A stretch of 64,000 nucleotides of DNA from a virus: the IMG/VR virus record IMGVR_UViG_3300040786_000066. One strand, given 5' to 3'. The position numbers and the translations under genes are program-made. Positions 1 to 56,893 of this stretch are shown piece after piece; positions within the stretch are counted from its first letter, which is position 1, and every line of letters begins with the position of its first letter. Below the pieces are notes generated by a model, which saw only the letters and a list, made by a program, of their open reading frames with translations, had not been told where the DNA came from and did not search any database.

Positions 1-266
1 CTTGGGTAGGTCGATCGACTATTCCACAGCTATTCAAGCAGAGAGGGGTATAGGGGATATCAAACCTTTGCTGAAATATTTTATTGCATTATATTACAGA
101 CAGGGAGGGAGTACCTACTATATGTGTATACTCCAATCACTATAGCCAGGCTTGATACCTAGTGCATACCAGGGCAGGGAGGGAGGGTGTATATAAAATA
201 AAGGGCAGCTTCGCCTAGTCTTATTATTTCATTGTACTATAAACATAAACCCTAAACACATACACG

Positions 267-473
267 ATGACACACTTACCTATGATTACTAATGATGAAG
301 CTGTAGAATTGCTAGACTACATAGCAATGAATGATCTAGAGAACGCATATGATGCTGAAAGAGATGCTATCTCAGCAGACATGTACGACAACTGCGATCC
401 TTCGGAATTTTCGGATACTCGAACTATACGAAGACGAGCTTCCTTACTAACTAATAGCCCTTCGGGGCTTTAA
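267..473 (+). CDS. small highly acidic hypothetical protein (first early gene)
   Basis: ORF follows motif copy 1 and has a D/E-rich core. The C-terminus runs into a terminator, so the true stop may be earlier. Confidence 0.55.
   Translation: MTHLPMITNDEAVELLDYIAMNDLENAYDAERDAISADMYDNCDPSEFSDTRTIRRRASLLTNSPSGL
456..469 (+). terminator. hairpin AGCCC-TTCG-GGGCT
   Basis: C(UUCG)G tetraloop stem between a gene and motif copy 2. Confidence 0.65.
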
Positions 474-549
474 GTTTAATCAATAAAAGGGCAGCTTCGG
501 TAAGTCTTATTATGTTTTTGTATTTCTCTAATGAGATACCCAATTTAAA

Positions 550-930
550 ATGAAGATTATTGAACTAAAAGGAGATATATATGATGTGTTATCTGATGGC
601 GTTGCAGGTGAAAACTGCATAGTGTACCATAATGGTACAGCTAATGTATTTAGCAACATGGAAAGAATATACCACTCTCCAAACTTTACAAATTCAGAAG
701 TGTTAGGAGAAATCCGCACACAAGAAGTTGTATCTACAGAGAATTTTGACTCTCGATATGGAGGACAAAACTCTTTAGTATCTTCGGATATGAAGAGGGT
801 GCAGGACTTCTCAAGAACCAAGGTTTTCGATGATATCGTAGGCGATCTTAAAATAGATGCTCTATATATATTTGATAAAGCCTTATTAACAACACATCAT
901 TTTGTAGTGTTGAAAGATGATAAGTTATAA
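550..930 (+). CDS. hypothetical protein
   Basis: Intact 126-aa ORF between motif copy 2 and a terminator. Confidence 0.7.
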   Translation: MKIIELKGDIYDVLSDGVAGENCIVYHNGTANVFSNMERIYHSPNFTNSEVLGEIRTQEVVSTENFDSRYGGQNSLVSSDMKRVQDFSRTKVFDDIVGDLKIDALYIFDKALLTTHHFVVLKDDKL

Positions 931-935
931 TACCA

Positions 936-960
936 AAGCCTCTGCATATTGTGGAGGCTT
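936..960 (+). terminator. intrinsic terminator-like hairpin
   Basis: AAGCCTCTGC/GTGGAGGCTT 10-bp stem directly after the stop codon. Confidence 0.65.
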
Positions 961-979
961 AATTTTAAAACAAACTGAT

Positions 980-1362
980 ATGAAAACTACAATGCTATGG
1001 TGTTCCGCACACCAACCAACTCAAGAACAAATTAACGAGCTTGAGGAAAAGGAAGATTAATTCTTCTAAAAGAGCACTCTCCAAAGATGATGGAGAGGAT
1101 ATCTAACTGTCCAAACAATAGACAGGAGATTAAAGAACTCATCTCTGATTTCAGAGATGTATTAGAAAGCTTCGATGCTTGTACTATTGTACAATTGGGA
1201 GGAAGCCCATTGTTCTTATTCATGGCAGGATCATTCATCCAAGGGGCGATGAATAAAGGGAATATACTATTCTCTCATAGCGAGAGAGTGAGCATAGACA
1301 CGCCTCAGCCTGATGGTTCTGTGGTTAAGACGAGTGTATTCAAACACTTGGGCTTTATATAA
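980..1362 (+). CDS. Csx20-like putative cyclic oligoadenylate ring nuclease (one apparent indel near 1050)
   Basis: Reconstructed MKTTMLWCSAHQPTQEQI...SNCP...IVQLGG...SHSERVSIDTPQPDGSVVKTSVFKHLGF matches the Csx20 pattern I recall (SH.LT.EQ, SNIP, LIQG, RVS.E..DG.V.K.S.FKH..F). Confidence 0.65.
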
Positions 1363-1365
1363 TCA

Positions 1366-1381
1366 TATCCCTTCGGGGATA
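1366..1381 (+). terminator. hairpin ATCCC-TTCG-GGGAT
   Basis: UUCG tetraloop stem between a stop codon and motif copy 3. Confidence 0.65.
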
Positions 1382-1455
1382 ATGGTTCTCAAAAGGGCAG
1401 CTTCGGCTAGTCTTATAATGTCTTTGTACTTGTCTAATCAGGTACCAACATAATT

Positions 1456-1617
1456 ATGATTATCAAGATATTTCTTAGTGTTATTGCAGTGTTATTCATT
1501 GCAATATCGTACGAACTTCACCAAATAGGTGATGTCAATCTGTACGCGTGGTACGGATTCGGAGGACTGATGGTTGTTTTAAGAACTATCAGAGCTGTTC
1601 AATTATCTAAACTTTAA
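1456..1617 (+). CDS. small membrane protein
   Basis: MIIKIFLSVIAVLFIAISYELHQIGDVNLYAWYGFGGLMVVLRTIRAVQLSKL, two hydrophobic segments (below the ORF-track cutoff). Confidence 0.55.
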   Translation: MIIKIFLSVIAVLFIAISYELHQIGDVNLYAWYGFGGLMVVLRTIRAVQLSKL

Positions 1618-1621
1618 ATAG

Positions 1622-1804
1622 ATGAGAGCATTGAACATTATCAGAGGAATTTCGAAGGCTTTGATGTTTGTAGTTTTGTACTTTATCTTGTACAATTACA
1701 CTCAAGGTCTTCAAACCATGGCTATTGGATTCTGCCTAGCCATGGTATTACTAATCAGCATCGTGCTGGTTATCAATTATTATGAAATAAATAAAGAGTT
1801 ATGA
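1622..1804 (+). CDS. small membrane protein
   Basis: 60-aa ORF with two hydrophobic helices, overlapping the next ATG. Confidence 0.6.
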   Translation: MRALNIIRGISKALMFVVLYFILYNYTQGLQTMAIGFCLAMVLLISIVLVINYYEINKEL

Positions 1805-2103
1805 AAAATGTATTGAGATTTATCGGCGTGATAGCTATAATAGTATCACTAAGTAATGTCATCGTATTGGCATTAAAAGGGTATAATGAAAACATTGTAC
1901 TCATTGGAGCATCTGTATTTATCACAGTAGTGGGATTTGTACTCCTTATTGCTGCTGATAATATGCAGATTAGGTTAACAGATAAGCAAATAGCAGATGC
2001 TATTACTAGCTTAGAGAGGCAAAGTCTTAGAGATAAGATGGCTCATTGGGGAGATGAACTCAATGAAGAAGAGATTGAGCGTCTATCTAGAGGAAGGTAT
2101 TAA
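1801..2103 (+). CDS. membrane protein
   Basis: Two N-terminal hydrophobic helices and a charged C-terminus. Confidence 0.65.
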   Translation: MKNVLRFIGVIAIIVSLSNVIVLALKGYNENIVLIGASVFITVVGFVLLIAADNMQIRLTDKQIADAITSLERQSLRDKMAHWGDELNEEEIERLSRGRY

Positions 2104-2548
2104 TCAAATGGTCGGGGATATTCCTCGGCCATTATTTATTAACAAATTAAATCAAGAAGTTATGTGGAGAACAGAATCAAAATTGGCATTAGTTGCAATA
2201 GCACTAATTGTCTTAGGAGGCATATATGGTATGTCAAACAAGAGTAACAATAGAAAGGCAGATGCCATCGCTGTACTCATGGAGAATGGAGAAGTTGATA
2301 GTTACAATAATGTATTGTTCTATACTGCCAATGATGAGCAGATGGATCAAAGAACATTGAGTGCATTGTCCTATCTATCAAGAGGATATGATATGGTTCA
2401 GGTATACAATAAGATGTCTGACTACAATGACAAAGAGTTATGGTCTGCTAATAAGCCAAGTTGGGATACAGTATACCAAACACCTAAGGAGAAGTATATC
2501 AGTATGCTTATAACAGAGAATGCGGCTGGAGGTATCAAGGAAGATTAG
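2054..2548 (+). CDS. membrane-anchored hypothetical protein
   Basis: Single hydrophobic helix (LALVAIALIVLGGIYG). The true start is probably downstream (2107 or 2161). Confidence 0.6.
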   Translation: MNSMKKRLSVYLEEGINQMVGDIPRPLFINKLNQEVMWRTESKLALVAIALIVLGGIYGMSNKSNNRKADAIAVLMENGEVDSYNNVLFYTANDEQMDQRTLSALSYLSRGYDMVQVYNKMSDYNDKELWSANKPSWDTVYQTPKEKYISMLITENAAGGIKED

Positions 2549-2555
2549 AAAAGAT

Positions 2556-2575
2556 GGTTGGGCTTCGGCTCAATC
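2556..2575 (+). terminator. hairpin GGTTGGGC-TTCG-GCTCAATC
   Basis: UUCG stem followed by a T-run, before motif copy 4. Confidence 0.65.
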
Positions 2576-2646
2576 ACCTCTTTTAAAAGGGCAGCTTCGT
2601 GTAGGCTTATCATGTGTTCATGCAACTGTGCATTAAACTTATAATT

Positions 2647-2925
2647 ATGGAAGAGTCTACAAAGAAAATTTTCAAACCAAAGTTCGAATTGGTTCAAGAA
2701 TGTAATGGCCTTGTTTCAATACATTTGGGTAAGCACGCTGCTGCGGCTATACTTCAAGGGACAGAAATCACTGGAACCACCCAGGAAGATCATCAAATGT
2801 TGGTGGTGTGTCGTACAATTCTTAGAGACATTGCCCTTAACGCATTGGGAGTTAGGCCTGAAGAATTGTGCCAGGACAAAGCAAGGAATCTTTTATATAA
2901 TCTATCAGATAGCCTACGTGGTTAA
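2647..2925 (+). CDS. hypothetical protein
   Basis: ORF between motif copy 4 and a terminator; start taken at MEESTKK. Confidence 0.6.
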   Translation: MEESTKKIFKPKFELVQECNGLVSIHLGKHAAAAILQGTEITGTTQEDHQMLVVCRTILRDIALNALGVRPEELCQDKARNLLYNLSDSLRG

Positions 2926-2932
2926 TATTCAA

Positions 2933-2950
2933 ACCTCTCTTCGGAGAGGT
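2933..2950 (+). terminator. hairpin ACCTCTC-TTCG-GAGAGGT
   Basis: Perfect 7-bp UUCG stem before motif copy 5. Confidence 0.65.
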
Positions 2951-3164
2951 ATGTTTATCTCAAGGAAAAGGGCAGCGTCGTTCTGTCTTATCAATTCCTC
3001 GTACTATATCTAAGTAGTACGCAAAACATATAACATGGAAAATACTATTGACTTAAGAAAGACAGGCGCTGAGAACATTATTGGTAAATTCAGTAAAAAC
3101 ATTCTTCTCAACATATTATACCTGTACGTGAGAACGGTTCGTTCATCGTGGAGCAAATATCTAC

Positions 3165-3416
3165 ATGACTGCTCGTCAAGCTGAAACTATTCTCATGCTA
3201 TCTGATTTCTTGGAAAAACGCCCAAGTGGTGATTCTAAGCATTGTGAGGATAGAGAATCAGAGGCTAATGTCATGCGTGAAAACACTGTGTTCGAACTTG
3301 CAATGCTTGTTCGTACTATGGCTAAAGGCGTTGCAGGTGTACCTTCTATGATTTCCATTAAGGACATGTCTATTGGCTACGGCCATGTATGTGATGAGCA
3401 TAATGGCAGATACTAA
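3165..3416 (+). CDS. hypothetical protein
   Basis: 83-aa ORF followed by hairpin AGCCTCTC/GAGGGGCT (3426-3447). Confidence 0.55.
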   Translation: MTARQAETILMLSDFLEKRPSGDSKHCEDRESEANVMRENTVFELAMLVRTMAKGVAGVPSMISIKDMSIGYGHVCDEHNGRY

Positions 3417-3450
3417 AGTATCAAAAGCCTCTCTTGATTGAGGGGCTATA

Positions 3451-3681
3451 CTATATCAGCGTAGAGAATATTTGATATAGTAGCAACAATGCAGGGGTAA
3501 ATGCACACGAGTATATCAGAACAGCGATATACTTGGGCGTGATTGCTGTGGTGCTTAGGCATCGGCGCTGGGTGAAGCCTGCACGTGAGAATTTAGTTTA
3601 TTGTATAGCCCGAGGTAGAAATACCTGTGACAGCATTGACTACAATAAGTGGATTCTCCAAACAACTACGATAAGGTTGTT
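3451..3681 (+). ncRNA. candidate structured RNA (unassigned)
   Basis: Nested helices CGAGTATATC/GATATACTTG, GCAGG/CCTGC, GAGAAT/ATTCTC, TTATTGTA/TACAATAA and AGGTA-GAAA-TACCT. Confidence 0.45.
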
Positions 3682-3720
3682 TAATAAAAGGGCAGCTTCG
3701 TTCGGTCTTATCAATTCTTC

Positions 3721-4265
3721 ATGAGCACACAAATTATAACTATCAGCGAAGATGTTATGAATACTGTAATCAAACCTATTTCCCTTTTCTTGAACGATAT
3801 CGAGAAGAATACTATCTTCACTCATAACCCTGCTAATGCTAAAGGCGTTAGTAATTATGACATCGTTGATAAAAGCTACCTGTCTTCTTCTACACATCAT
3901 CGAAAGGTGGTACGTATAAGTTTACTGCGTATGACTTGCGTAACTTTTCTCATAAAGGAGTACCGTTCAAGGACTCTTTTCAAGTAGAGAACGGCAAAGT
4001 TATACATGTAGCTGAAACGTTCACCATCACTAAGAAGAGCACGGCTCTACTTGTGGACGACGAGAAGGTATATCCACCGTTCTGTTATAAGAACTATGCG
4101 GAATACGCTGTCATGAAAGCCGCTCAACCAATAGGGACTTACCCTACTGCTGAGATGTTGACTTTCTTGAAAGAGGACGGAGTAAAGGAAGCAGACGTTG
4201 AAAAGTACTATCGTACTATCGACACTGACAAACCTTTATTCTTCTATAAGGCTAACGGCAAATAG
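3721..4265 (+). CDS. hypothetical protein (indel-split), paralog of 4629-5230
   Basis: Joined from ORFs 3721-3987 and 3936-4265; contains YPPFCY. Confidence 0.55.
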
Positions 4266-4359
4266 AAACGGGTTTGATTACGCATACGCATATCGCATAC
4301 AAATAACATCTTCGCGGATGTAGACCTCGAATAATAGTAAGGGTCTATATTATTGAACT

Positions 4360-4390
4360 AAGCACTCTCTTAATTGGGAGTGCTTTTTTT
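4360..4390 (+). terminator. intrinsic terminator
   Basis: AAGCACTCTC/GGGAGTGCTT stem followed by a long T-run. Confidence 0.8.
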
Positions 4391-4628
4391 ACGTCTATGT
4401 ATTGCAATAACTAACCGACTGTACTCTGCAATAGCTGACCTGACCGCAATGGCTACGGACAATATTGAGACTCTACTACCCCAAGGGCAGCTTCGTCCTG
4501 ACAAAGAAAAGGGCAGCTTCGTCTTGTCCAAATATTTCTTTGTCGCTCCCGCGTGTGGGATTGATACAACGGCTTCCCTGAGGATGTTTGTTGTCACTTA
4601 TAACACGAAATATAAAACCTATATTACA

Positions 4629-5230
4629 ATGTCAAAATCAAGCACGATTAGTTTAGATGTATTAAATGCATTAAGCCCACAAAAGGAATGTTGAACGCTT
4701 CAGTTAAGGAGCTAGAGAACCAAGTATTCACTTTTCATTCTATAGTTGCACCTGCTGAGAAACTGCGGATCTTACTGCTGTCAGCGATGACAACTCGTAT
4801 GTGAAAGCTCGTTATATCAATTCAAAAACAAAGAAGAGTTTCTTGATCCCAATCAGAGGATTATTGAATCTTGGAATTGTTCAGATGGGTACAACTAAAG
4901 TGAAAGCATTAGACCCTAAAGCAGAAGTTGCAAAGTGAATGATTATTTACTTGAGAAATCAACTGATGGTAAGGAGTGAGTCTTCCAATGTCTTTCTATG
5001 TAGTTTCTGTCAAAGATAGAATCCAAGAAAGCACTGGGAACATTATGTACCCTCCGTACTGCTACCAAGCGTTCTCTGATGAGATTGAGACGCTTAGAGC
5101 GACAGATCCTAAAGCGGATTTGGGTCCTATCTACCAAAATTATGACTTTATGCAGTCATTATATGCTGGAGAAAGATCTGCTCGCTACGCCACTGCGGAA
5201 GCAACTAAAGACATAGTTATCTCAGTTTAA
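4629..5230 (+). CDS. hypothetical protein (indel-split), paralog of 3721-4265
   Basis: MSKSSTISLDVLN... through YPPYCY to the stop at 5230; followed by a terminator at 5260-5300. Confidence 0.55.
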
Positions 5231-5708
5231 TCCCAAAGGATTTAATAATGATACTATTTACTCTCATACCAGACCATGTGTCCGGTGTGGGAGTTCTTTT
5301 GTCCTTTTCAACAATACACCACTAAAAGCACCTGACATTGCACCATTCATCCATAGGTTTATATAACATTACCGTCTTTTCAACAACAAACTACCCATTT
5401 CCTCTTAACAAACTGGATTTATACTCGATATCGAGTGTATTTATCTCCGATTTGTAATAAATAACAGGAAATAAGTGTATTTTGGTTCGTTGATAACAGG
5501 CAAAAGCGATGAGTACAAAAAATTGAATAATAACGTTAAGTATAAAAGGAGATCCTCGATTACTGAAGAAAGTAAGTAAGTCGAATGGGTTAACCCGAGT
5601 AAGAACACAACGATAAAAATATAGTTAATCAGTCCACAGCCTTCCAGGAACAAACACACTTGTTTTCCATAATTATAAGAGTCATTAATCACGTCAGACA
5701 AGACCGCG

Positions 5709-6093
5709 AAGCTTGTTTGACTGGGTTAGTTACTAAAGTACCAATCCCTGGTCGGCGAAGGGAACTGAGGTTAGAAAAACTGCGAAGCAGCAGGCTGAAT
5801 GCAATGTGATGAAGTACAGTAATCATGTTAGTAAGTCTCTCCCGAGTAGATTGAGTATAACGATTTACAATATTAGCCCCGGATATAGGTTGATTACCTT
5901 ACCCTGTATCAGATAGACACGTTTCATCGTCGGGCAATAACAAAAGTCCAGAGTGCACATAGGTATATGAAAATTAAGAACCTACCTGCATTAGATTTAT
6001 TAGAGAATCGTCTGGCAACAATAAGTCCTGAGTGGATTGCATGATACGTCATACAACCTCGAGCTCTTCATAAGTGGAGAGCTTTACAGGCTT
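5709..6093 (+). ncRNA. candidate large (~385 nt) structured RNA, unassigned
   Basis: No credible ORF. Closing helix AAGCTTGT(5709-16)/ACAGGCTT(6086-93). Internal stems GATATAGG/CCTGTATC, AGCTCTTCA/TGGAGAGCT and CTGC-GAA-GCAG. Confidence 0.5.
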
Positions 6094-6104
6094 ATAGAAA
6101 AGTC

Positions 6105-6226
6105 CGGAATTAATCTTGACGCTGATAGTATGTGCACATATAATTTCAGTTGAGGTACGAGAGATAATCATAAATTAAGTTGTACAGCTTGATTCAATGA
6201 AAGGGTTCGATTCCCGAATTTCCGCA
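6105..6226 (+). ncRNA. tRNA-like RNA (acceptor plus T-loop, non-canonical core)
   Basis: CGGAATT pairs with AATTTCCG (one bulge); GGG-TTCGATT-CCC T-arm; no canonical anticodon arm. Confidence 0.4.
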
Positions 6227-6593
6227 TAATATGGAGAACTTCAGAAGAGCTATCCAAGTTTAATAAACCATTTAATAACCAAACCATTATGAAAAGATTT
6301 TGTTTTATTCGTATTGGCTTTCAGTCTGTTTTCCTTTATGGGAGCTAGAGACTATGTGAAGCCTGTTTCAAGTCATGAAGCTGTATTTGTAGGAAGTACT
6401 AACTTTCCCTAAAGATCTACAACGGTACAATCAAAAGCCGAAGTTCCATAAGGAAAGACAAAAGAATTAGAATACTGCAGGCCTCCTTTATAGTTTGGAA
6501 CGAGCCTGAAGTTAGAATTAACATTGTGTATAATATCGTTGCAAGCACAGACTTAAAATCTGGATACTGACAACTATACTATATATAAAATAA

Positions 6594-6652
6594 AAAATAC
6601 CCTTGAGAGGCGAGTGCCGTTTAGGACTCAAGGGTATTTTATTAACATGGGG
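6594..6652 (+). terminator. long hairpin/terminator upstream of the tmRNA locus
   Basis: AAAATACCCTTGAG/CTCAAGGGTATTTT 14-bp inverted repeat. Confidence 0.6.
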
Positions 6653-6708
6653 AGGCAACTAAGCTTTCTAATATTACGAAGCCGTGTAATAATATGCATT
6701 ATAAAAGC

Positions 6709-6791
6709 GGGTAAGTACTCTAGAAAAGGCGTTATTGTTTGTCGCGGTATACAGTCGGCATACAAGATGGGTTCGATTCCCTACCTATCCA
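6709..6791 (+). ncRNA. tRNA-like RNA with Ala-type acceptor (G3:U70, A73)
   Basis: GGGTAAG/CCTATCC acceptor (one mismatch), TTCGATT T-loop, and a long hairpin instead of an anticodon arm. Confidence 0.45.
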
Positions 6792-6792
6792 C

Positions 6793-7062
6793 AAGATTGT
6801 TCATTGACGTATTATGAGTTTTGCAAGACGGGAGTTCGACTCTCCCAACTCCACAAATCGAAGACCGTGTATGTTGTCGATGGTGTAGCTAGCCGATATA
6901 CAAATAGCCGAACTTATGGGGTTGCCTGGTTTTGATTGCAATACACAAGTTTTACTGAGAATAGTCCCAACTATAACTCCAAAAGTTATACAACTTTTAG
7001 TGCAGCTGATTTAGAATTAGCAGCCTAGACGAAACTTGGGGAGCGTCAATCCCCTTATTTTT
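6793..7062 (+). ncRNA. ssrA: circularly permuted (two-piece) tmRNA
   Basis: Acceptor piece first (GACGGGAG-TTCGACT-CTCCC-AACTCC-A, 6827-6853), then a spacer, then the 5' piece GGGGTTGCCTGGTTTTGA at 6918 (G3:U70). P2 TTGCAA/TTGCAA. Tag frame ends ...FSAADLELAA-TAG (7028). Inter-piece pairing TTGACG(6804-09)/CGTCAA(7044-49). Confidence 0.88.
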
Positions 7063-7083
7063 AAACCCTAAATTTATCGATCG

Positions 7084-7425
7084 ATGAAAAACGAAACTCT
7101 AATTAATCCCAAGATTACGAGGACTCGTAATTCTGTGAACGTAAATTGGTTCTCTGTATGTAAAAGTAGCGTTGATAACGTTATTCAAATTACATCAAAA
7201 TCCGAGTTCTTTAACACTCCTCTTGTTTATAAAGTAACAGAGGATTTAATTATACTTAGAAAAGTCACTATACGAGATAACAAAAGAATAGTAGTACCTA
7301 AAAAAGGCCGCGATTCTGAGTTTTATCGCATGAGCATCATAACTAAATTTGAAATCGAAAACAACAGATACGATTTTGAATTTGATGAAGATGATGAGGA
7401 TGTAGTATCTGCTTATTATAAGTAG
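7084..7425 (+). CDS. hypothetical protein
   Basis: Intact 113-aa ORF with an acidic C-terminus inside the ncRNA island. Confidence 0.6.
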   Translation: MKNETLINPKITRTRNSVNVNWFSVCKSSVDNVIQITSKSEFFNTPLVYKVTEDLIILRKVTIRDNKRIVVPKKGRDSEFYRMSIITKFEIENNRYDFEFDEDDEDVVSAYYK

Positions 7426-7459
7426 CATATTTGTAAATTAATTGAGATCTTTGAATTGA

Positions 7460-8770
7460 AATAACGGCTTGAGCGAAACGTGGGCCGTGGTTCAAAGAAT
7501 ATACAACACTAGTCCTGGAATTCCTGGCAAGCCTATGAAGATAGGAACTTGGTAGAGGATAGAGGCACGTAATCCTTCATATTGCATCGGTACAAATAAA
7601 CAAAACCGAGCCGCACAACACCGTGATTCTTTTAGATAACGGAATATGATTGACTACAACCGGAGCACGGATTCAAACTAACTGTACTGTGTCGAACAGG
7701 ATGAAATCGATTGATGCTAGCCGTAAGGCAACTAACATCTTGTTGCATTTAAAAGGGACAAGAAATGATAGGGATTCTGCAGGATCCAGCTATTGAATAA
7801 GGGTAAGAATAATATCCCCTTAGAACCTCGCTGACACCAGCCAAGTCAGGAGAACAAATCGGGTGGCATCCCTCTAAGCATAAGGAGAACAACAATGCGC
7901 ATTAGCATAAGGTGTACAACAATGCAAGTACTGTCGGCCAGCCATGTCAGCTTGGACCCAAAGTTGGAGTTGATAACTTTGCCGGCAAGTACTTTAACCA
8001 TGCTGAAAAGCAATTGCAAGGAGACTATTAGGTACGTCTTCCCAGAGTAACGTGTGCCAACACCCTGGGTATCTTAGGTCAAGGATGCAATACTTTTCAT
8101 AAAGTCTATAATCTGCGATAACAGAATGAATACATCAACCGCGCAACAAGGCGAGTTTAGTTTTTAGTATGTGAGCGGTAGACACAACTACACACAACAA
8201 ACAAAGATTGCTACTTAAGCTAGTTTATGAACAGCGACTCTGACTCGGGCATCTAATGTACCGGCTAACCTTACAGAGAAAAGGTGTAATCCCTTGCCAG
8301 TATGATTTTAGGCAAATGCAAACTTCGTCAATGTTCCTTAGCGTTCGGGTATTAAGTATAAGATAGCATAAGCCTAAAAGTTGTTGGCATTAGGGCATCA
8401 AGGGATTGATGTGATGAGCTGTAACGGAACTCAGCAGGCAGGTTCGATTCCTGTTAGCCTCACTATTTTAACAACATCCAACGCTCAAAGGAATTAAGAG
8501 GGCAGGCGTTATAGTGACCCGCCGAGAATGAATGGTCACTGAATTTCTAAGTAGTAATGGTCATCTTAAGATACCTGAGTAGAGTGAGTAGTAAGAGTGG
8601 TGCCTATATGGTATTTCTGAAATGAACGTAGTAGCTCAAAAGGCAGATGGACTCAATAGAGAAGATTATTATTGAATTTGCGTGTTCGTTCAGTCCAGTT
8701 TGCATAGCAGGATCGCGCACGTTAAAACTAAGGTAGGAGCAGTCATCAAGTATGGTGATTGTCTCCCTTT
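7460..8770 (+). ncRNA. giant structured RNA, GOLLD-like, with an embedded tRNA-like element (~8393-8462)
   Basis: About 1.3 kb with no ORF of 60 aa or more on either strand. Many helices, e.g. AAGTACTGTCGGC/GCCGGCAAGTACTT, AAAGTT/AACTTT, CCCAG/CTGGG, AGTGACC/GGTCACT, TGGACT/AGTCCA. Ends in a terminator-like hairpin. The class assignment is from recall only. Confidence 0.55.
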
Positions 8771-8798
8771 TGTATACTAAGAACTAACAACAACTAAC

Positions 8799-9161
8799 AT
8801 GGAAGAGTATGTAGATTACCTGAAAGGGAAAATTCAAGAATGCGAGCTGGAAGATATGCACGTATCTGTGTCTGTTTACAAAGAAGTACTAAATACTTAT
8901 TTAAGTTTCCTTGATGCCGCCAAGCTGAAAGCATCGTTACATAATAAAGTAGGCATAGTTACAGCAGGCTCAAGACAATTTGGTAAAGCTGCCAGATTTG
9001 CAGAGCTCTATGGTATGATGAAACCTGCAGTTCACATCATGGTGGGCAGCAAAGAGATGCATGACAATATGGAAAAAGCACTTATTGATGCTGTAGAGCA
9101 TGTAAAGAATGCACCTATTCAAGGAAGATTTACAGACGCTTTTGAAAAGAACGCGGTATGA
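8799..9161 (+). CDS. hypothetical protein
   Basis: Intact 120-aa ORF preceded by a CAACAACTAAC leader. Confidence 0.65.
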   Translation: MEEYVDYLKGKIQECELEDMHVSVSVYKEVLNTYLSFLDAAKLKASLHNKVGIVTAGSRQFGKAARFAELYGMMKPAVHIMVGSKEMHDNMEKALIDAVEHVKNAPIQGRFTDAFEKNAV

Positions 9162-9533
9162 GCATAAACGAGTCCATGGCAAAAGACAACAGTATAATGA
9201 TTACTGCTCTTCCAAAGATGACAAAGCCTCTACTCCCGTTGGATAAATATGGCCAACCGCTTGAATTACCTAAATCCAAATACCACAAATAATCATGAAC
9301 AGCAAATTTATAGGTTACGTAGCAGGGTTGTTGGTAATAGACAGGCAAATGAAAAAATGCTTGGCTGTTGTAAGAACAGCTGGCCACCAGAAAAGAACAT
9401 CAAGCAAGTCTAAGCTGAAGCAGAGTAAGCCGGCGACTAATGCAAATTACAAGAGCACTAAACCGATGAAATCTAAGTCGACCTCGCAATTTCGAAACAA
9501 GTCAAATATCTAACAACAACTAAACTAAGAAAA

Positions 9534-9752
9534 ATGGTAAAGAAAAACACCTCAATTGAATTGGCCGTAGCGCTAATGTTAAAAGGCATGGCTTATATGT
9601 TGTGCATATTAGTTTGTGCAATGTTCCTTCCTTTTATTGTCAGCCTTATCGGAGTGACATTTGTAAAAGAGCTCACATTGGATGAAGCAGTAAGCTCTCC
9701 ATTGTTTATCGTTTTCACAGTAATTGGCGGATTTATATCCTTTTTGTGTTAA
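9534..9752 (+). CDS. membrane protein
   Basis: Two hydrophobic segments. Confidence 0.55.
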   Translation: MVKKNTSIELAVALMLKGMAYMLCILVCAMFLPFIVSLIGVTFVKELTLDEAVSSPLFIVFTVIGGFISFLC

Positions 9753-9828
9753 TGTCAGCTCTTGAAGAACAAACAAAACAAGAGCGCGCTCAAAGAATCA
9801 GTAATTCTATTAAATAGCATGTAGGAAA

Positions 9829-9859
9829 TTTGTACTAATTTATTATATTCGTAAGTTGC
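9829..9859 (+). promoter_or_regulatory. Bacteroidota sigma-A-type promoter candidate
   Basis: TTTG-N19-TAAGTTGC; one T short of the TAnnTTTG consensus, possibly a homopolymer error. Confidence 0.45.
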
Positions 9860-9883
9860 GGTACTAATCGACAAGCAATAACC

Positions 9884-10300
9884 ATGAAAGAAATAAATAA
9901 AGACATTGTAAAAGAAACATCAAATAGGCTGTTGGGATTATGTGAAAACAATCCGGCAGCCTATAAATGTATGATAGAGCTGCTGTCTTCTAATAGACGT
10001 ATCGATCCCAGTAACGGTTTTGGACCGTTAGGGGCTGTAGTAACATTACACTCCTCAGGCATAAAAGGCAACAAAATAAATCTGTTGTTCAACTCAATAT
10101 GTCAAGGCAACATTGCCAGACTAATAGCCATTTTAAGAGCTGTACAGTTGGGGTTGATCTGTAAAACAGAGGTTCACCAAGCAATGTCTATATGTGAAAA
10201 CTCCAAGGAAGAAGCTCTTGACGTAAGAAACATTTATCATAAAGTCAAAAAATACTTGGCACTCAACTTTGACATAAAGAACGAGGCCAGGTTCACCTAA
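9884..10300 (+). CDS. hypothetical protein (tandem paralog 1)
   Basis: Shares the ID-P...G..G..I..LF..IC..N.AR..A.LRA.QLG pattern with the next gene. Confidence 0.7.
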   Translation: MKEINKDIVKETSNRLLGLCENNPAAYKCMIELLSSNRRIDPSNGFGPLGAVVTLHSSGIKGNKINLLFNSICQGNIARLIAILRAVQLGLICKTEVHQAMSICENSKEEALDVRNIYHKVKKYLALNFDIKNEARFT

Positions 10301-10310
10301 AACCAAACAA

Positions 10311-10694
10311 ATGGCACACATAGAAAGAATAAACTGGACAGACAGCGTGCCCGATGCGGTAGCTAAAATAGCGGAAGGGAACATCGGGGCGGCAGTATGC
10401 ATTATGGACCTGATGAAACACTCAGAAGAAATAGACCCTTTGAGTTACCTAAAAGTAATAGGACCCGTTATGCTGTTAGACAGCCTTGGGATATATGGAC
10501 CAAACGTATGGGTAATATTCAAAGACGTCTGCGAACAGAACCATGCAAGAATGCTCGCAGTGCTGCGTGCCACACAGTTGGGCATGCTTTCAAGCGAAGC
10601 ATTGTTGGAGGTTTCAAACAGGCAGTACAGAAATGAAGGAAAAGTAAAAAATAGACGTTGCCGAATTATATTTCAAGGTGAAAGACTTTCTTGA
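10311..10694 (+). CDS. hypothetical protein (tandem paralog 2)
   Basis: Paralog of 9884-10300; the 3' end is probably shifted by an indel. Confidence 0.7.
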   Translation: MAHIERINWTDSVPDAVAKIAEGNIGAAVCIMDLMKHSEEIDPLSYLKVIGPVMLLDSLGIYGPNVWVIFKDVCEQNHARMLAVLRATQLGMLSSEALLEVSNRQYRNEGKVKNRRCRIIFQGERLS

Positions 10695-12314
10695 AGACTT
10701 CGACCCCAACAACAGGGCCGATTTACATAGATAGACCACAGGGACCTGTAACAAAGCAACTTCCAAAATTACAAGGGTCTTTAAAAGCCCTTTTTAATTT
10801 AACAACTAACCAACTATGGAAGTAGCAATTAACCATGTGATAGCGATAGCTGAAAAATCACGAGAATGGAGGTCCTTGAGAAGATTCATTAGGCCTTGGA
10901 GTACATAAAAATAATTCTGTCCTGTTTGATAAGAAAAACAGAAGCCACTATTTTTATATCGAATACAACAAGAAATTCAAAACAGCTGTAGTAGCAATAT
11001 TTATCAAAGAATCTTTAGTGCAGCAAATAGCCATCAAGGCTCATTTCTTAAGAATATCCGGATACGATATTGCAAGCAGGCTAGAGATCGTAGGCAAAGA
11101 AACTATTACTGACGAAGAAATCAGAACAAATTACATCACCCTTCCTCATTTCGTAACACTGAAGGATGAAATCATGAGAACGTTACAAAAATAAAGACCA
11201 ATAAACCCTAACAACAAAAATCATGTTAAAAAACATCAAGAATTCCGGAGCAACTAAAGTATTGACAGTTGTAGTATTATTATCATTAGGCAAAGAATCT
11301 ACTCAAAGAGAGTACAAAATTGCTTTTGCTGAAAATGCAATAGTTGACGAACATGCAGAAGCTGTTAAAGTAGCAACGGCTGCTAAGAAAAGTATACTAG
11401 TATTATACGTCTTGAGGTAACACGTCAGTGTTCACCAGCGTATTGGCAACAACAGAAGTATAATAAAACAAAATCCCCTAAGCAAAGAGCGAAGGGGTTT
11501 TATATAAATCAAGCAGTGAGCCAACGTTAAAGTAAAAGACCAATAATGCTTTAACAACAGTAATGATAAATAAACAGAGTAAATAAACAACATTTATTTT
11601 AATTACACAAGCGGATCAGCTTAAATCTTACTCCCATGGCTCATATTAATACAGAAAACAAAGTAGATGCCCTTATTTTATCTAGAAGAGCTAGCCAAAA
11701 CCAAAATTCACAAAACACTGCAACCTTAAAGGAAGCCTTACATGAATTCATAGGTACAGCTTACATAGTCCAAAAGATTGGGGATACGGAGAAATACCGA
11801 TGTACAAAGAAATGCATAAGATTACAGATATTACAGTAAAAAATGGAGTAGTCTATTTTTTATCAGAGGTAATGCTCATAGAAAATGATATCAAGACAGG
11901 GCACATCAGTGTGAGTAGAAGCTCCCAGGAAGTGTTACCAGTCGTGTATGAAAAAAGCACAGAGCTCTCAGGTATATTTTACGAGGAAATAGTTATGTAC
12001 TATAATAAATCCTTAAGTAAAATGTTCAAAGACTTGAATGACATGATTACAGATCAGCTTGTCATAGGAAGACAGAAAAGCCATCAAAAACGGAACAGTA
12101 AAATAAGTCGAAAGACTCTAAAACATACAACATGCAAGATACTTTAATAGTTATTTTGTCTTTTGTTCTACCCAATTTTCATAGGAGGTATGTTATTTTT
12201 ATTAAGTTTTCTCATTTCTAAGAATACAAAATCAAGCTTAGAAGAAGGATTTAGATTAACACAAATAATGTGGGTAGTGCTAGCAGTAGCAGTACTAATA
12301 TTTCTATTCAGCTC

Positions 12315-22428: not shown

Positions 22429-23936
22429 AATAATTATGGAAGTAAAGCTAATTAAAGTAGAAGGCTGTGTAGTCGGCTGGTCTATGGAAGGAGAAAACCT
22501 TGAAGAAATGAAAAACTAGGGGCTATCAGAGACATCCAATTCTTTGGTTTTGAAGATACAGAAATAGTGTACGCAGGTAGAAAAGGCGGTGACTATGTAA
22601 CAGATCCTGGAGTGTTGTCTTGGAAACAAAAAAAGCACGACACTAGCTCCCCAAAAAAATAATGAAAAGCTAGAAGCTACAATAACAGTAGATAACTTAG
22701 TGTCGACCATGAAAACATCAATGCCATCAGAGAAGATCCTAAGAGAACGAATGAAATATTTCGTGCTGCAGGATTTTAGAGGGTATATTGTATACTAGGG
22801 AGGCTAGTACCAGGCAAACAACTTGTCTTTAAAAATATCACTTATGTGGAGATTGGATGGATAGGCCAGAAAAGAATAAAGACCAGAGAACAAACCTACA
22901 TGGAGCTGATGGTAGAAATGATGGAAGAATTCATCAAAGAACTCACTTAATAAATTGACTTATGGAAAAAGAAGTAAATGTTAGAACATACACATACGCT
23001 CAACTAGACTGTAAATATGATGCACTATGTTTAAAAGATAAAAATACAGTGCTTAGAGGAGCTTTAGAATACATGCAGCAGTACAACGGTAGGACTATAA
23101 AACATGCATTTTCATGGCTATGGGCTATGAGGATTGCGTAGGGAAGGAGAATACATAAAAGTAATAGACCATGGGTAACATACAAGAACTGGAAAACAGC
23201 TGGCTGAGGCAAAAGCTGAAGAAAAGAGAAAAGAGCTTCAAACCTTGACAGAAAACCTCATCTCTAAATACCAAGGAAAGCTTACGGGAGTCACAGTTTC
23301 GAAAGAAAAACAGATCAGCGTACGCTTCAGCTGTGTTTTATGAAAAGTTCTGGGTTACAGGCAATACGATAACAGTATTGAAATGGAACATATCCTTTTG
23401 CAGAGCAGGAAGAAATTACAAATTCTCAAGTGATAAGCTGTCTTTGACAGAAACAAAACTGAGGTATCCTCACAGGAGAACGGCTATAGTTTTGAGCACA
23501 ATTTAATAAGTTCAGGCGCCTATGGTAGGGACAAAGAAATGTCCGTAAACAAATTCATGCAACTTTGGGAGTACGGATATTTTGTGGTACAAGAACTAGA
23601 CAACGTATACACAAAACTGTGGGACAGCCGTGGGACTTGACTAGAATGGGCACAGCAACCGATGAACTAAAGTTAGATATAGCTATAAAAGCCACTGGTA
23701 TTGATGTTATAGATATAACAGAAGACTACAAGGTATTCAACGTACTCAAGTATTGTCAGTTACCGTTCTTTCAAGAACAGAAGTATCTGCCTAGAATATT
23801 CGCAGTAAAAATACTCGAATATCAGATATCCAAAATGAAGGAGGATATGGCACATCCATTCTCTACACGCACAGAACACACACGTGGAGAAATTAAAATT
23901 CTAGAAGATTTTATAAAACAATTTAACTCTTACATC

Positions 23937-24842
23937 ATGCAAGTAAAAACGATAAAGAAAATAATCAGTAAAAAAATGATCGACTGGTTAGAAACTATTC
24001 CCAACGAAAAGTTGAGATCTGACGTCAAGAAAAATATCCTCGTATCAGGAGGTTGTATCACATCATTGTTTCAAGGATTACCAGTTAACGACTACGACGT
24101 ATACATTCAGGACATGGATGTTCTGATCAGACTGGCTCAGCATTATTACCCAGGAACAACTACCACAGGTGTTGATAAAGTGCTTGACGGAAGAAAACGT
24201 GAGGACTATCTTAACAATATACAGAGCTCTTTTGAAATTGACGATAACGAATCTGAAGAAGCAGTTCGCTACAAAACACTTAAACTAGATCAAGTCAAAT
24301 TGAACATAAGTTCGATAGGAATGAAAAAAGAGCTGATTGAAGGTAAAAAATACCAGGTTGCTTTCTTTTCCCAAAATGCTATCTCCCTTACAGAAGATTT
24401 GCAGATTGTATTAAGATTCAGTGGTAACGTTACTCAAATTCACAAAACTTTCGATTTCGTGCATGCCACTAACTATTTCACCTTTGAGGAAGGATTAGTT
24501 ACAAACGTAGCAGCACTAGAAAGCATATTGACAAAGTCTTTGAGATACCAGGGATCCTTATATCCTCTTACCTCTGTAATACGTATGAAGAAATTCATAC
24601 AACGTGGTTGGACCGTAAACGCGGGAGAAATCCTTAAGATGTTGTTCCAAGTGTCTGAGTTAGACCTAAAAAACATAGAGGTGCTAGAAGAGCAGCTTAT
24701 AGGAGTTGACGTAGCTTATTTTTCGCTACTGATAACAGTGCTAAGAGATACTGAAGGAAAGCTTACCGCTCATCATTTATCTGAATTGATAGACAAGGTA
24801 TTCAATGAATACGAAGAGCCGGTTGACGAAGAAGTTAAATAA
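23937..24842 (+). CDS. phage nucleotidyltransferase (Pol-beta superfamily, poly(A) polymerase/CCA-enzyme-like head)
   Basis: ILVSGGCITSL...NDYDVY and FDFVHATNYF...R..KF..RGW motifs. The ORF track starts at 23565; the likely start is MQVKT. Confidence 0.75.
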   Translation: MQVKTIKKIISKKMIDWLETIPNEKLRSDVKKNILVSGGCITSLFQGLPVNDYDVYIQDMDVLIRLAQHYYPGTTTTGVDKVLDGRKREDYLNNIQSSFEIDDNESEEAVRYKTLKLDQVKLNISSIGMKKELIEGKKYQVAFFSQNAISLTEDLQIVLRFSGNVTQIHKTFDFVHATNYFTFEEGLVTNVAALESILTKSLRYQGSLYPLTSVIRMKKFIQRGWTVNAGEILKMLFQVSELDLKNIEVLEEQLIGVDVAYFSLLITVLRDTEGKLTAHHLSELIDKVFNEYEEPVDEEVK

Positions 24843-41556: not shown

Positions 41557-42650
41557 ATGAAATTTTCACCTCAACTATTACCAAATAACCCTGCAGGAAT
41601 AACACCTGATTGGGAAGCATTATTAACTCAATTTCTGACTACATGGCCTCTGATAAGGCTGATGGAGGTCGTGTAGAATGCGGAGAAGACGGATCAGCAT
41701 TAGGAAGAAGCTTAAAACCTATTCCAAGTGAGCATATTAAAGCAATGACAAAAGACCTTTCGCTGTTATTACAACACGAAGGATACGTTGAAGCTGAATT
41801 GTACAGCCCCAACATGAACTTTGCTGAGATCATGCATTTCTTTCGATCGGAAGACGTTACTTCATTAAAATCTCGTAAAAAACATGAGGCAGAATGGAAA
41901 AAACAGTCGGTGGAACTATCTCCTACACTAAAAAAGTAGGTAATGTAAATGTAGATCAGCACTGGGAATATCCGGGAAGAGATGTCGACTGGTTATGTAC
42001 TTGGCAACCTTGCCTAAAGCTGTACGTTTTGACCATATTAAAGGAATTGATGACAGCCGCACCAAAGAACAGCGCTATGAATCCCTTCAAGCTATATGGG
42101 ACAACAGCAGAATAATCGATGATTTAAATGACATAGCAGTCTTAGTTAAGCAAACTCAATATACAAGTATTGACGAAGTTTTCCAAGCTTATGATCAAGC
42201 TATCATCAGTGGATACGAAGGCCTTGTAATGATGCATAAAAACTCTTCTTATAAAATGGGAAGACATAGCCTAAATTCAGGTATGGCATACAAAATCAAA
42301 GAAGACAACCTTCAATTTGATGGTGTGATTCTGTCGCTAGAAGAGGGTACAGAAGTCATAGAAGGAGTAGATAAGAAAATCAACGAGTTAGGCAGAAGTG
42401 TAACTTCAAAATTAAAAGAACACCGTACTCCAAGTGGATTATGCAAAGGCTTCAAAGTTCTTATGGACGATGGTAACGAACTTACCGTTTCTTTAAAGGA
42501 TTACCCTCACCCAGAGCGTAGGGCTATGCTTTTAGACCCTTCTCCTTATATTGGACAGACAATACGTTTCACCGGAATGGGTGCCGTAAAAGAAGGCGGA
42601 TGTCCTCGTCATGCCCATTACACAAAGGGAATATCAGGGATGAAAAGTAG
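41557..42650 (+). CDS. lig: ATP-dependent DNA ligase (indel-split)
   Basis: KADGGR (motif I), EAELY, YEGLVM (motif IV), YKIK (motif V) and OB-fold IRFTGM...PRHA. Confidence 0.88.
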
Positions 42651-56430: not shown

Positions 56431-56893
56431 AAGAGGGTAGTTTAATATTCAAGCTAGAGCACCTAGATAGATATGCAATTGTAAAGAACCTTGTACGTTG
56501 ATTGTAAAAAACAACTCCAAGCTTGCAATGGATGATCTTTACACAGAAGACAACAGTCCCCGGTGGATCCTAAATCTAAAGGTTATCTCTGAGTTTAATC
56601 TTATGCTACTAAAAGAACTTAGCAAAGAAGGAGAGCGCTTAACCTACAGTGATATGGGACATCTATTAATGACTGGAGCCCTATGGGAAGATCAGATTGC
56701 AACAGACGCAGATTTACCGTCTAAAGGAGAAGAGATGATTGCTGTTTTTGGTTACGTGAGAGAAGTACTTATGTGTACTAACATCACACTTATACCCAGA
56801 AGACAGCCGGATATCTACCTTTATTCTAGTGAATCAATGGACGAGATTAATGAATTTGAACAAATTATTAAAGACATGAGAGATGAAAAATAA
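56427..56893 (+). CDS. hypothetical protein (indel-split)
   Basis: ORF between the helicase and the polymerase. Confidence 0.5.

What the first reader, a model, noticed from the sequence alone, without database searches (positions are those of the whole stretch)
980..1362. Csx20-like ring nuclease in the phage early region: candidate anti-type III CRISPR protein
Restoring one A near 1050 gives a ~127-aa protein matching the Csx20 signature I recall (SH..T.EQ; SN.P; Q.G; RVS...DG.V.K.S.FKH..F). Established: Csx20 is a type III CRISPR accessory protein linked to cyclic oligoadenylate turnover, and viral ring nucleases such as AcrIII-1 block type III immunity. No CRISPR locus is in this window, and the gene sits in the first-expressed array. 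Inference: it is a hijacked ring nuclease acting as an anti-CRISPR.
Basis: partly seen in the sequence, partly recalled or inferred. Interest (0 to 1): 0.8.

Follow-up and report, generated by a model that had tools for sequence, protein, structure and literature searches.

The report
Phage Csx20-like ring nuclease gene
A small phage gene that looks broken only because of a sequencing error encodes a distant relative of Csx20, an enzyme that destroys the alarm molecule of type III CRISPR; it is therefore a plausible but untested anti-CRISPR, of a kind already noted in the literature.

Summary
Window 980-1362 is one 127-aa gene split by a missing A at 1047-1050. The break is a long-read homopolymer error. 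A 99.3% identical 167-kb metagenomic contig carries A5 there and an intact ORF, and it differs from the window by 61 deletions, none of them insertions, nearly all within or beside base runs.

The product is a true but distant homologue of Csx20/MJ1673. Three Csx20 profiles match over the full length, though below NCBIfam's cut-off (31.8 against 70 bits). A profile-profile comparison with bona fide Csx20 gives 99.2% probability. The only significant Swiss-Prot fold match is MJ1673. A symmetric homodimer is predicted.

The gene belongs to a large, unnamed, metagenome-only clade. All six long contigs I inspected look like phage and carry no cas genes within 10 kb.

Csx20 is a published cA4 ring nuclease, and phage csx20 homologues have already been proposed as counter-defence. 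The enzyme activity, the anti-CRISPR role, the host and the early timing are all untested here. Other windows of this scan have also flagged phage Csx20-like genes.

Verdict: a real feature, a new member of a known kind, of moderate to low interest.

The parts
980..1362 (+). Csx20/MJ1673-family gene. The true product is 127 aa (P0002). In the window it reads as 26 aa (980-1060) plus a -1 frame open from 1045 to the stop at 1360-1362.
1047..1050 (+). A4 run that is A5 in the near-identical contig L001. This one-base homopolymer deletion causes the apparent frameshift.
   Evidence: (window 1047 aligns to L001 10068)
936..960 (+). 11-bp stem hairpin followed by AAUUUUAAAA, lying between the upstream ORF and the gene. 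It is terminator-like with a weak U tract.
   Evidence: -15.2 kcal/mol, z -4.1
1367..1380 (+). C(UUCG)G hairpin directly after the stop codon, marking the end of the cassette.
   Evidence: -10.9 kcal/mol, z -2.8
486..513 (+). Copy of the repeated promoter-like motif (AAAGGGCAGCTTCG..N..GTCTTAT[AT]AT). It heads the two-gene cassette of ORF 550-930 plus the Csx20-like gene and is the likely source of the gene's transcript (inference).
550..930 (+). 126-aa orphan ORF in the same cassette, upstream of the gene. It has no family match and is not conserved next to the gene in a related phage.
1392..1419 (+). Next copy of the cassette motif, starting the following cassette.

Best explanation
The gene encodes an intact 127-aa protein of a large phage genome; one related contig is 167 kb, and the host is probably Bacteroidota. 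The protein is a diverged member of the Csx20/MJ1673 family, which has a CARF-like Rossmann fold. Most likely it forms a symmetric homodimer whose conserved loops line a pocket on the two-fold axis. Those loops are S9-A10-H11 after strand 1, G74-G75-S76-P77 after strand 4, H100-S101-E102-R103, and the Q110/D112/G113/K117 hairpin. By analogy with Csx20, the pocket would bind cyclic tetra-adenylate and cut it without metal into linear A2>P products. Made during infection, the enzyme would remove the Cas10-made second messenger before it activates effectors of the Csx1, Can2 or Csm6 type. That would make it an anti-type III CRISPR factor, working like AcrIII-1 but from an unrelated fold. Shown here: the gene is intact, it is homologous to Csx20, it sits in a phage, and a dimer is predicted. 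Inferred: substrate, catalysis, timing and biological role.
For: Intactness.

Homology:
- NF040559 CAS_Csx20 matches at E 1.5e-7, 31.8 bits, profile positions 6-121 of 124.
- Two PADLOC Csx20 models match at E 2.7e-7 and 4.6e-5, both full length.
- The database's precomputed Pfam family is PF27247 MJ1673.
- hhalign of the 96-sequence clade alignment against four bona fide Csx20 (144-162 bits) gives probability 99.2%, E 6e-20, over 124 columns.
- The Csx20 profile rings over its cut-off in M. jannaschii.

Residues: those invariant in bona fide Csx20 are kept (H11, T14, Q17, R103, Q110, D112, G113, K117, F121, H123).

Fold:
- The AF2 model has pLDDT 80.
- The only significant Swiss-Prot match is MJ1673 (E 4e-5, TM 0.67, residues 3-127).
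- Eight of the nine best PDB representatives are SAVED or CARF cyclic-oligonucleotide sensors (Z 5.3-6.0).

Dimer: score 0.75 against 0.00 for the best of 3 controls. That mark was reached by 20 of 30 proteins solved as pairs of one chain and by 1 of 23 solved as single chains; these counts hold only roughly because my own alignment was used. The runs agree in at least 94% of contacts, and the partner's pLDDT is at least 87. The interface includes the GGSP loop and H100.

Phage context: a tail protein lies upstream and DNA ligase and polymerase fragments downstream. There are no cas genes and no CRISPR array. Six long contigs carrying clade members are all phage-like, and in most the gene is among the first genes of a block.

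Literature: Csx20 degrades cA4 in vitro and was found in 4 of 28,114 phage genomes (PMC12409355). csx20 homologues occur in Aca14-regulated acr operons and were proposed as co-opted counter-defence (PMC13551039).
Against: The score is far below the curated Csx20 cut-off (31.8 against 70 bits). Two loops that are invariant in CRISPR-linked Csx20 differ: GDFG becomes GGSP and YATT.R becomes FSHSER, so substrate or chemistry may differ. No catalytic residues of Csx20 have been defined experimentally in the papers I read, so 'active site retained' cannot be tested. The structural matches to solved CARF and SAVED domains are only Z 5-6, and Foldseek against the PDB gave nothing below E 0.02. The host is unknown, so a type III system in it is unproven. 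A sister clade of the family occurs in CPR bacteria in which no Cas10 was detected, including a 655-kb assembly labelled as a chromosome, so the wider family is not strictly tied to type III CRISPR. The gene has no promoter motif of its own and follows a hairpin.
Confidence: 0.55

Rival explanations
1. It is a cyclic-nucleotide enzyme or binder aimed at a signal other than cA4. Candidates are cA3, cA6 or CBASS-type cyclic oligonucleotides, so the target defence would not be, or not only be, cA4-signalling type III CRISPR.
For: The best solved-structure matches are SAVED domains of the CBASS effectors Cap5, Cap4 and Cap14 and of TIR-SAVED. Csx20 itself degrades cA3 at high enzyme concentration (PMC12409355). 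The loops around the predicted pocket differ from CRISPR-linked Csx20. Family members occur in genomes where no Cas10 was detected.
Against: The only biochemically characterised relative is specific for cA4. Sequence and fold are closer to Csx20/MJ1673 than to any SAVED protein. SAVED and CARF share one fold, so the ranking at Z 5-6 carries little information.
Confidence: 0.15
2. It binds cOA without cutting it and acts as a sponge, as was suspected for Csx15 and as is known for the phage sponges Tad and Acb2.
For: The dimer has a predicted pocket on the two-fold axis. The ATT.R loop of Csx20 is replaced. The sponge idea is discussed for Csx15 in PMC12409355.
Against: The polar residues are strictly conserved across a very diverse clade: H11, G75 and K117 are invariant, and Q17, S76, R103, S105, D112 and H123 are at least 90% conserved. 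That pattern fits an enzyme better than a binder. A later paper titles Csx15 a ring nuclease (PMC13148439, title and abstract only).
Confidence: 0.12
3. It has a role unrelated to defence signalling, for example a nucleotide-binding or regulatory role in phage metabolism. On this reading the likeness to Csx20 reflects only an old shared Rossmann-like fold.
For: No cas genes are nearby and the host is unknown. The neighbours are all orphans. A sister clade of the family lies in CPR genomes without detected Cas10. Other Rossmann-like enzymes appear at Z around 5.
Against: Full-length profile-profile homology at 99.2% with shared invariant polar residues goes beyond fold likeness. Small, phage-early, stand-alone genes of this family fit the known anti-defence pattern (PMC13551039).
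Confidence: 0.13
4. The gene is truly frameshifted in this phage, either as a pseudogene or through programmed -1 frameshifting or transcriptional slippage at the A run.
For: The window as given has A4, and GAA AAG is weakly slippery.
Against: Over 11.3 kb the window shows 61 deletions, no insertions and only 3 substitutions against an otherwise identical contig. The intact allele occurs in two samples. Many truncated JGI fragments of the same protein point to error-rich long reads. An A4 run is too short for known transcriptional slippage (established knowledge).
Confidence: 0.03

Closest known systems
Csx20 (NCBIfam NF040559; Pfam PF27247 MJ1673), the CRISPR-associated cA4 ring nuclease (Hoikkala et al. 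2025, PMC12409355)
   Same: Size is about 125-130 aa. The order of motifs is the same, and H11, T14, Q17, R103, Q110, D112, G113, K117, F121 and H123 are shared. hhalign gives 99.2%, the best fold match is MJ1673, and a homodimer is predicted, as was modelled for Csx20.
   Different: It scores 31.8 bits against a 70-bit cut-off. The GDFG and YATT.R loops are replaced by GGSP and FSHSER. It is not next to cas10 or any cas gene. It is encoded by a phage. It falls in a separate clade with no member among the GTDB genome hits of my motif scan.
Phage and MGE csx20 homologues already reported: Csx20 in 4 of 28,114 phage genomes (PMC12409355), and csx20-aca14 operons such as that of Pasteurella multocida (PMC13551039)
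   Same: A stand-alone Csx20-family gene on a mobile element, proposed as counter-defence against cOA signalling and untested as an Acr.
   Different: No RHH or Aca-like gene lies beside it; the neighbours are orphans. It belongs to a different clade, with the WCSAH.PT.EQ / GGSP / HSERVS motifs. The proteobacterial genome hits carry the NLTQH / IGGAP type instead.
AcrIII-1 / Crn2 (DUF1874), the viral ring nuclease anti-CRISPR
   Same: The proposed job is the same: a small dimeric phage enzyme that destroys cA4 to blunt type III immunity.
   Different: The fold and family are unrelated. There is no DUF1874 match in Pfam, and the model is a CARF-like Rossmann fold.
Stand-alone CARF ring nucleases Crn1 (Sso2081) and Csx15/Csx16
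   Same: A CARF-like alpha/beta fold, with a dimer whose ligand site lies on the two-fold axis. An AlphaFold DB cluster representative named Csx16, a fusion protein, appears among the fold hits.
   Different: There is no sequence-level match. Crn1 was not among the 50 best solved representatives.

Membership tests
Csx20 (NCBIfam NF040559, equivalog) | Whole-protein score at or above the curated cut-off of 70 bits | tested here: not met
   31.8 bits for the intact product and 22.1 bits for the C-terminal 105 aa. Bona fide members found here score 144-162 bits.
Csx20 (NCBIfam NF040559, equivalog) | End-to-end alignment to the family profile with significant E-value | tested here: met
   Profile positions 6-121 of 124, E 1.5e-7. 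PADLOC Csx20 models: positions 5-123 of 128, E 2.7e-7, and 3-123 of 128, E 4.6e-5. hhalign against four bona fide Csx20: 99.2%, 124 columns.
Csx20 (NCBIfam NF040559, equivalog) | Family-invariant polar residues (His after strand 1, T..Q, Arg, Q.DG..K, F.H) | tested here: met
   H11, T14, Q17, R103, Q110, D112, G113, K117, F121 and H123 align with invariant columns of the bona fide set.
Csx20 (NCBIfam NF040559, equivalog) | Loop motifs Q-G-[DE]-F-G and Y-A-T-T-x-R, invariant in the four bona fide sequences | tested here: not met
   The window protein has Q-L-G-G-S-P and F-S-H-S-E-R.
Csx20 (NCBIfam NF040559, equivalog) | Encoded in or beside a type III CRISPR-Cas locus (cas10 nearby) | tested here: not met
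   No cas genes in the 20 kb around the intact copy and no CRISPR array in the window. By contrast, all 5 genomes with an over-cut-off Csx20 have Cas10, one within 6 kb on the same contig.
Csx20 (NCBIfam NF040559, equivalog) | cA4-specific ring nuclease activity | not testable with these tools
   Shown for one Csx20 in vitro (PMC12409355).
Csx20 (NCBIfam NF040559, equivalog) | Homodimer | tested here: met
   Prediction only: score 0.75 against 0.00 for the best of 3 controls. The mark was reached by 20 of 30 known homodimers and 1 of 23 monomers (roughly, as my own alignment was used). At least 94% of contacts agree between runs, and pLDDT is at least 87.
Pfam PF27247 (MJ1673) | Match to the Pfam model | tested here: inconclusive
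   The database's precomputed annotation lists PF27247 for P0002 and nearly all clade members. The local Pfam copy returned no hit, apparently because it lacks this model, so I could not re-score it.
Pfam PF27247 (MJ1673) | Fold like MJ1673 | tested here: met
   Foldseek against Swiss-Prot AlphaFold models ranks Q59067 (MJ1673) first, at E 4e-5 and TM 0.67/0.66 over residues 3-127. The next hit is at E 0.046.
AcrIII-1 / Crn2 (DUF1874) | DUF1874 domain | tested here: not met
   No Pfam match at E up to 1. The model is a Rossmann-like alpha/beta fold.
CARF/SAVED superfamily | CARF-like Rossmann fold resembling solved cOA sensor domains | tested here: inconclusive
   Eight of the nine best of 48,161 PDB representatives are SAVED or CARF domains, but at Z 5.3-6.0 only. 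Foldseek against the PDB gives a best E of 0.023.

The most novel reading that the evidence does not exclude
The window's gene represents a very large, phage-restricted branch of the Csx20/MJ1673 family: 419 clusters at 50% identity matched at E up to 0.001, and every hit listed is unnamed or 'hypothetical'. Its remodelled pocket loops (GGSP, HSER) could give it a different or broader cyclic-oligonucleotide specificity than CRISPR-linked Csx20. If so, it would be a widespread, unrecognised family of phage anti-signalling enzymes. It might even be the viral stock from which cellular Csx20 was recruited, as has been argued for AcrIII-1 and Crn2.
Probability: 0.15. Interest if true: 0.6.

Novelty: new member of a known kind. 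Interest (0 to 1): 0.35.

Why it matters
AcrIII-1 is the viral ring nuclease whose anti-CRISPR role the papers I read cite as demonstrated. Csx20 was confirmed as a cA4 ring nuclease only in 2025, and phage copies have been noted but not tested.

This gene gives a concrete, intact candidate from a clade that is abundant in uncultured large phages. Annotation misses that clade because it scores below the curated cut-off. A positive assay would add a second, structurally unrelated family of viral anti-type III enzymes, and would suggest that cOA signalling exerts strong pressure on environmental phages, probably of Bacteroidota.

A practical point follows as well. This window is riddled with homopolymer deletions, so apparent frameshifts elsewhere in it should not be read as biology.

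Tried and rejected
- Alternative genetic codes do not explain the lack of long ORFs: no recoding restores them. The cause is indel error.
- Programmed frameshift or pseudogene is rejected.
- Megablast of window 500-3000 against 50,697 phage records found no match.
- tblastn of the C-terminal part found only 4 weak phage hits: an uncultured Caudoviricetes, Rhodothermus phage RM378, and Fusobacterium phages JD-Fnp4 and JD-Fnp7.
- Sequence searches of the PDB, with the single protein and with the clade profile, found nothing meaningful.
- Foldseek against the PDB gave no hit below E 0.02.
- The local Pfam copy gave no hit, and PHROGs gave none.
- No whole genome is held for the window. The records behind L001 and L043 are not held.
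- The search for related loci on species genomes failed with A2, which has no conserved stretch, and found no relative with A3. A degenerate DNA motif of my own then found 43 stretches, of which 33 are true family members.
- The last word-index search, seeded with a jumbo-phage homologue, found no source-named Csx20.
- Neighbouring ORFs have no Pfam, PADLOC or informative PHROG match.
- The upstream 126-aa ORF is not related to the gene upstream of the homologue in another phage, so there is no conserved partner and no Aca-like regulator.
- No tRNA genes and no CRISPR-like repeats were found.
- The careful tree did not finish, so only the quick tree with SH-aLRT support is reported.

Full report
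**1. Observation**

The window reads ATG at 980, then 26 codons to TAA at 1058-1060. A second frame, shifted by -1, is open from 1045 to the stop at 1360-1362. The two frames overlap only in 1045-1057, which contains an A4 run at 1047-1050.

A word-index search with the downstream part returned P0002. This 127-aa protein is exactly the read-through product if the run is A5. P0002 is encoded intact on a 167,412-bp JGI contig (L001) and on a 3.7-kb contig from a second sample (L002).

Window 1-11296 aligns to L001 at 99.34% identity. The differences are 3 substitutions, 61 deletions in the window and no insertions. Nearly all deletions lie within or beside runs of one base, typically five read as four, and a few are 2-3-base losses. 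One falls at window 1047. This is the signature of uncorrected long-read data.

The same pattern explains two other things. The 64-kb window has only 13 ORFs of 150 aa or more. The database also holds dozens of truncated fragments of this same protein on 3-5 kb JGI contigs. Alternative genetic codes do not rescue the ORFs. The start at 980 is supported by the conserved N-terminus of the family, M-K-x-L-L-W-C-S-A-H.

**2. What the protein is**

Sequence evidence:
- The intact product matches NCBIfam NF040559 (CAS_Csx20) over profile positions 6-121 of 124, at E 1.5e-7 and 31.8 bits. This is well under the curated 70-bit cut-off.
- Two independent PADLOC Csx20 models also match end to end.
- The database's precomputed Pfam label is PF27247, 'MJ1673'. 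MJ1673 is a ~130-aa protein associated with type III-A systems of Methanococcales (PMC3973734). The Csx20 profile rings over its cut-off in M. jannaschii.

To get true Csx20 sequences I scanned 185,579 species genomes with a degenerate motif, Q.DG[ST][VI].K...F.H..[FW]. Of 43 stretches, 33 are family members. Five exceed the Csx20 cut-off at 144-162 bits. All five genomes have Cas10, and in one it lies within 6 kb on the same contig.

A profile of 96 relatives of the window protein aligns to four of these bona fide Csx20 with hhalign probability 99.2% and E 6e-20 over 124 columns. Residues invariant in the bona fide set are kept: H11, T14, Q17, R103, Q110, D112, G113, K117, F121 and H123. Two loops differ: Q-G-[DE]-F-G becomes Q-L-G-G-S-P, and Y-A-T-T-x-R becomes F-S-H-S-E-R.

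Fold evidence:
- An AlphaFold2 model (pLDDT 80) is an alpha/beta Rossmann-like fold with a C-terminal beta-hairpin.
- Its only significant Swiss-Prot match is MJ1673, at E 4e-5 and TM 0.67 over residues 3-127.
- In AlphaFold DB clusters it hits uncharacterised small proteins, entries named 'CRISPR-associated protein', and a fusion protein named Csx16.
- Among 48,161 PDB representatives, eight of the nine best are SAVED or CARF cyclic-oligonucleotide sensor domains, but only at Z 5.3-6.0. Foldseek against the PDB was not significant.

Dimer prediction: a homodimer test passed with score 0.75 against 0.00 for the best of 3 controls. That mark was reached by 20 of 30 proteins solved as pairs of one chain and by 1 of 23 solved as single chains. 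These counts hold only roughly here because my own alignment was used. The runs agree in at least 94% of contacts, and the partner's pLDDT is at least 87. The symmetric interface uses the helix at 77-91, the GGSP loop and strand 96-100. This places conserved loops near the two-fold axis, as in CARF dimers.

**3. Where it sits**

Upstream of the window, the near-identical contig carries a tail-protein homologue. Inside the window there are fragments of DNA ligase and DNA polymerase. There are no tRNA genes, no CRISPR array and no cas genes.

Two matches hint at the host. The best phage match for ORF 23565-24842 is Tenacibaculum phage Larrie at 51.5% identity, and the polymerase fragment resembles crAss-like phages. 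Together with 37% G+C and no evident Shine-Dalgarno sequence before the start (my reading), this points to a Bacteroidota host. That is inference only.

The gene lies in an array of cassettes. A motif, AAAGGGCAGCTTCG..GTCTTAT[AT]AT, occurs eight times in the first 4.6 kb and nowhere else in the window. In most copies it lies roughly 45-60 nt before an ATG, and several copies follow a UUCG-loop hairpin. The Csx20-like gene has no copy of its own. It is the second gene of the cassette headed by the copy at 486. It is separated from ORF 550-930 by a strong hairpin at 936-960 (-15.2 kcal/mol, z -4.1) and followed by a hairpin at 1367-1380. Its expression therefore probably depends on read-through. 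'First-expressed' is plausible but not shown.

**4. The family at large**

An exhaustive search of 1.84 billion cluster representatives found 419 clusters at E up to 0.001. The 120 best hits of a profile search are unnamed or 'hypothetical protein', and nearly all carry PF27247.

Six long contigs carrying clade members (L001, L003, L006, L087, L088, L089) all show dense small orphan genes, phage markers and no cas gene within 10 kb. In most of them the gene is among the first few genes after a strand switch or a contig end. IMG/VR holds 27 loci. Six of these carry the motif [FY][AS]HSERVS.D, which found no relative in the species genomes.

A quick tree (SH-aLRT only) separates three groups:
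- (i) bona fide Csx20 together with a clade from 174-242-kb contigs (one homologue lies on a 203-kb IMG/VR viral contig), support 94;
- (ii) a cellular 'NLTQH / IGGAP' clade of 18 rows, support 98;
- (iii) a metagenome-only clade of 96 rows that includes the window protein, support 93.

The window's gene is thus not a recent capture from a CRISPR locus. Members of clade (ii) occur in ten CPR genomes in which no Cas10 was detected. They also occur in proteobacteria that do have Cas10, either far from the gene or on a different contig. In Holdemanella, one of three sub-threshold copies lies 1.5 kb from cas10. I did not place that particular copy in the tree.

**5. Mechanism**

By homology with Csx20, shown to degrade cA4 and, weakly, cA3 (PMC12409355), the most likely function is a dimeric, metal-independent ring nuclease. 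It would clear cA4 during infection and so blunt type III CRISPR effectors. This is the job of AcrIII-1, done with an unrelated fold.

This step is inference. The changed loops leave open a different ligand or a sponge mode. The presence of the wider family in genomes without detected Cas10 leaves open a role beyond type III CRISPR.

**6. Comparison with what is known, and novelty**

Phage-borne Csx20 is already in the literature. It was found in 4 of 28,114 phage genomes (PMC12409355). csx20 homologues occur in Aca14-regulated acr operons, where they were explicitly proposed as co-opted counter-defence (PMC13551039). Other windows of this scan have also flagged phage Csx20-like genes.

What this case adds:
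- a verified intact allele;
- proof of homology despite the sub-threshold score;
- the recognition that it belongs to a large, unnamed clade found so far only in metagenomic, phage-like contigs, with distinct loop motifs.

I rate it a new member of a known kind, interest 0.35.

Noticed in passing
window 1-11296 (probably the whole window): The window carries about one homopolymer deletion per 185 bases relative to a near-identical contig: 61 deletions, no insertions, 3 mismatches. Apparent frameshifts and the scarcity of long ORFs (13 of 150 aa or more in 64 kb) are sequencing artefacts. Every ORF call in this window needs the polished relative.
   Followed up: yes
window 200, 486, 1392, 2586, 2967, 3687, 4482, 4508 (+ strand): Eight copies of AAAGGGCAGCTTC with a GTCTTAT[AT]AT-like extension lie in the first 4.6 kb only. 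Several follow UUCG hairpins, and most lie roughly 45-60 nt before an ATG. This looks like a phage-specific promoter-plus-terminator cassette array. Terminator-like hairpins are enriched, 12 found against 2.8 expected.
   Followed up: partly
L044-L086 (species genomes); G008, G011, G012, G018, G020-G023, G029, G035: A distinct 'NLTQH...IGGAP...YAFS.R.S' clade of the Csx20/MJ1673 family occurs in ten CPR (Patescibacteria) genomes in which no Cas10 was detected, including a 655-kb Saccharibacteria assembly labelled as a chromosome. Either these copies are on mobile elements or the family has a role outside type III CRISPR.
   Followed up: partly
L038, L039 (IMG/VR contigs of 203 and 187 kb); P0308-P0317 (contigs up to 242 kb): A second, separate clade of Csx20-like genes on very large contigs (174-242 kb; two homologues lie on IMG/VR viral contigs) groups with bona fide CRISPR-linked Csx20 in the quick tree. 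It scores 41-55 bits on the Csx20 profile, closer than the window's clade.
   Followed up: partly
G032 (Holdemanella biformis DSM 3989) contig 39: 262068-262412, 377070-377315, 386516-386692: There are three sub-threshold Csx20-like matches in one genome. One lies 1.5 kb from cas10/csm1 (258215-260512). CRISPR-linked members therefore exist that the NCBIfam cut-off misses.
   Followed up: no
P0233 (261 aa, metagenomic): A single chain made of two tandem Csx20-like domains. This fused pseudo-dimer recalls how SAVED domains relate to CARF dimers.
   Followed up: no
window 23565-24842 (+): A 425-aa ORF is 51.5% identical to a hypothetical protein of Tenacibaculum phage Larrie. It is related to proteins annotated as putative tRNA nucleotidyltransferase in Vibrio phages. 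This is the best clue to a Bacteroidota host.
   Followed up: partly
window 41995-42729 and 56883-57461 (+): These are fragments of an ATP-dependent DNA ligase and of a family A DNA polymerase, the latter closest to crAss-like phages. Both are probably cut up by the same homopolymer errors.
   Followed up: no
NC_004735.1 289-714 (Rhodothermus phage RM378, Rm378p002): A cultured thermophilic phage carries a 141-aa hypothetical protein whose C-terminus matches the family (42% identity over 55 residues), at the very start of its genome record. It is a candidate for testing in a culturable phage-host pair.
   Followed up: no
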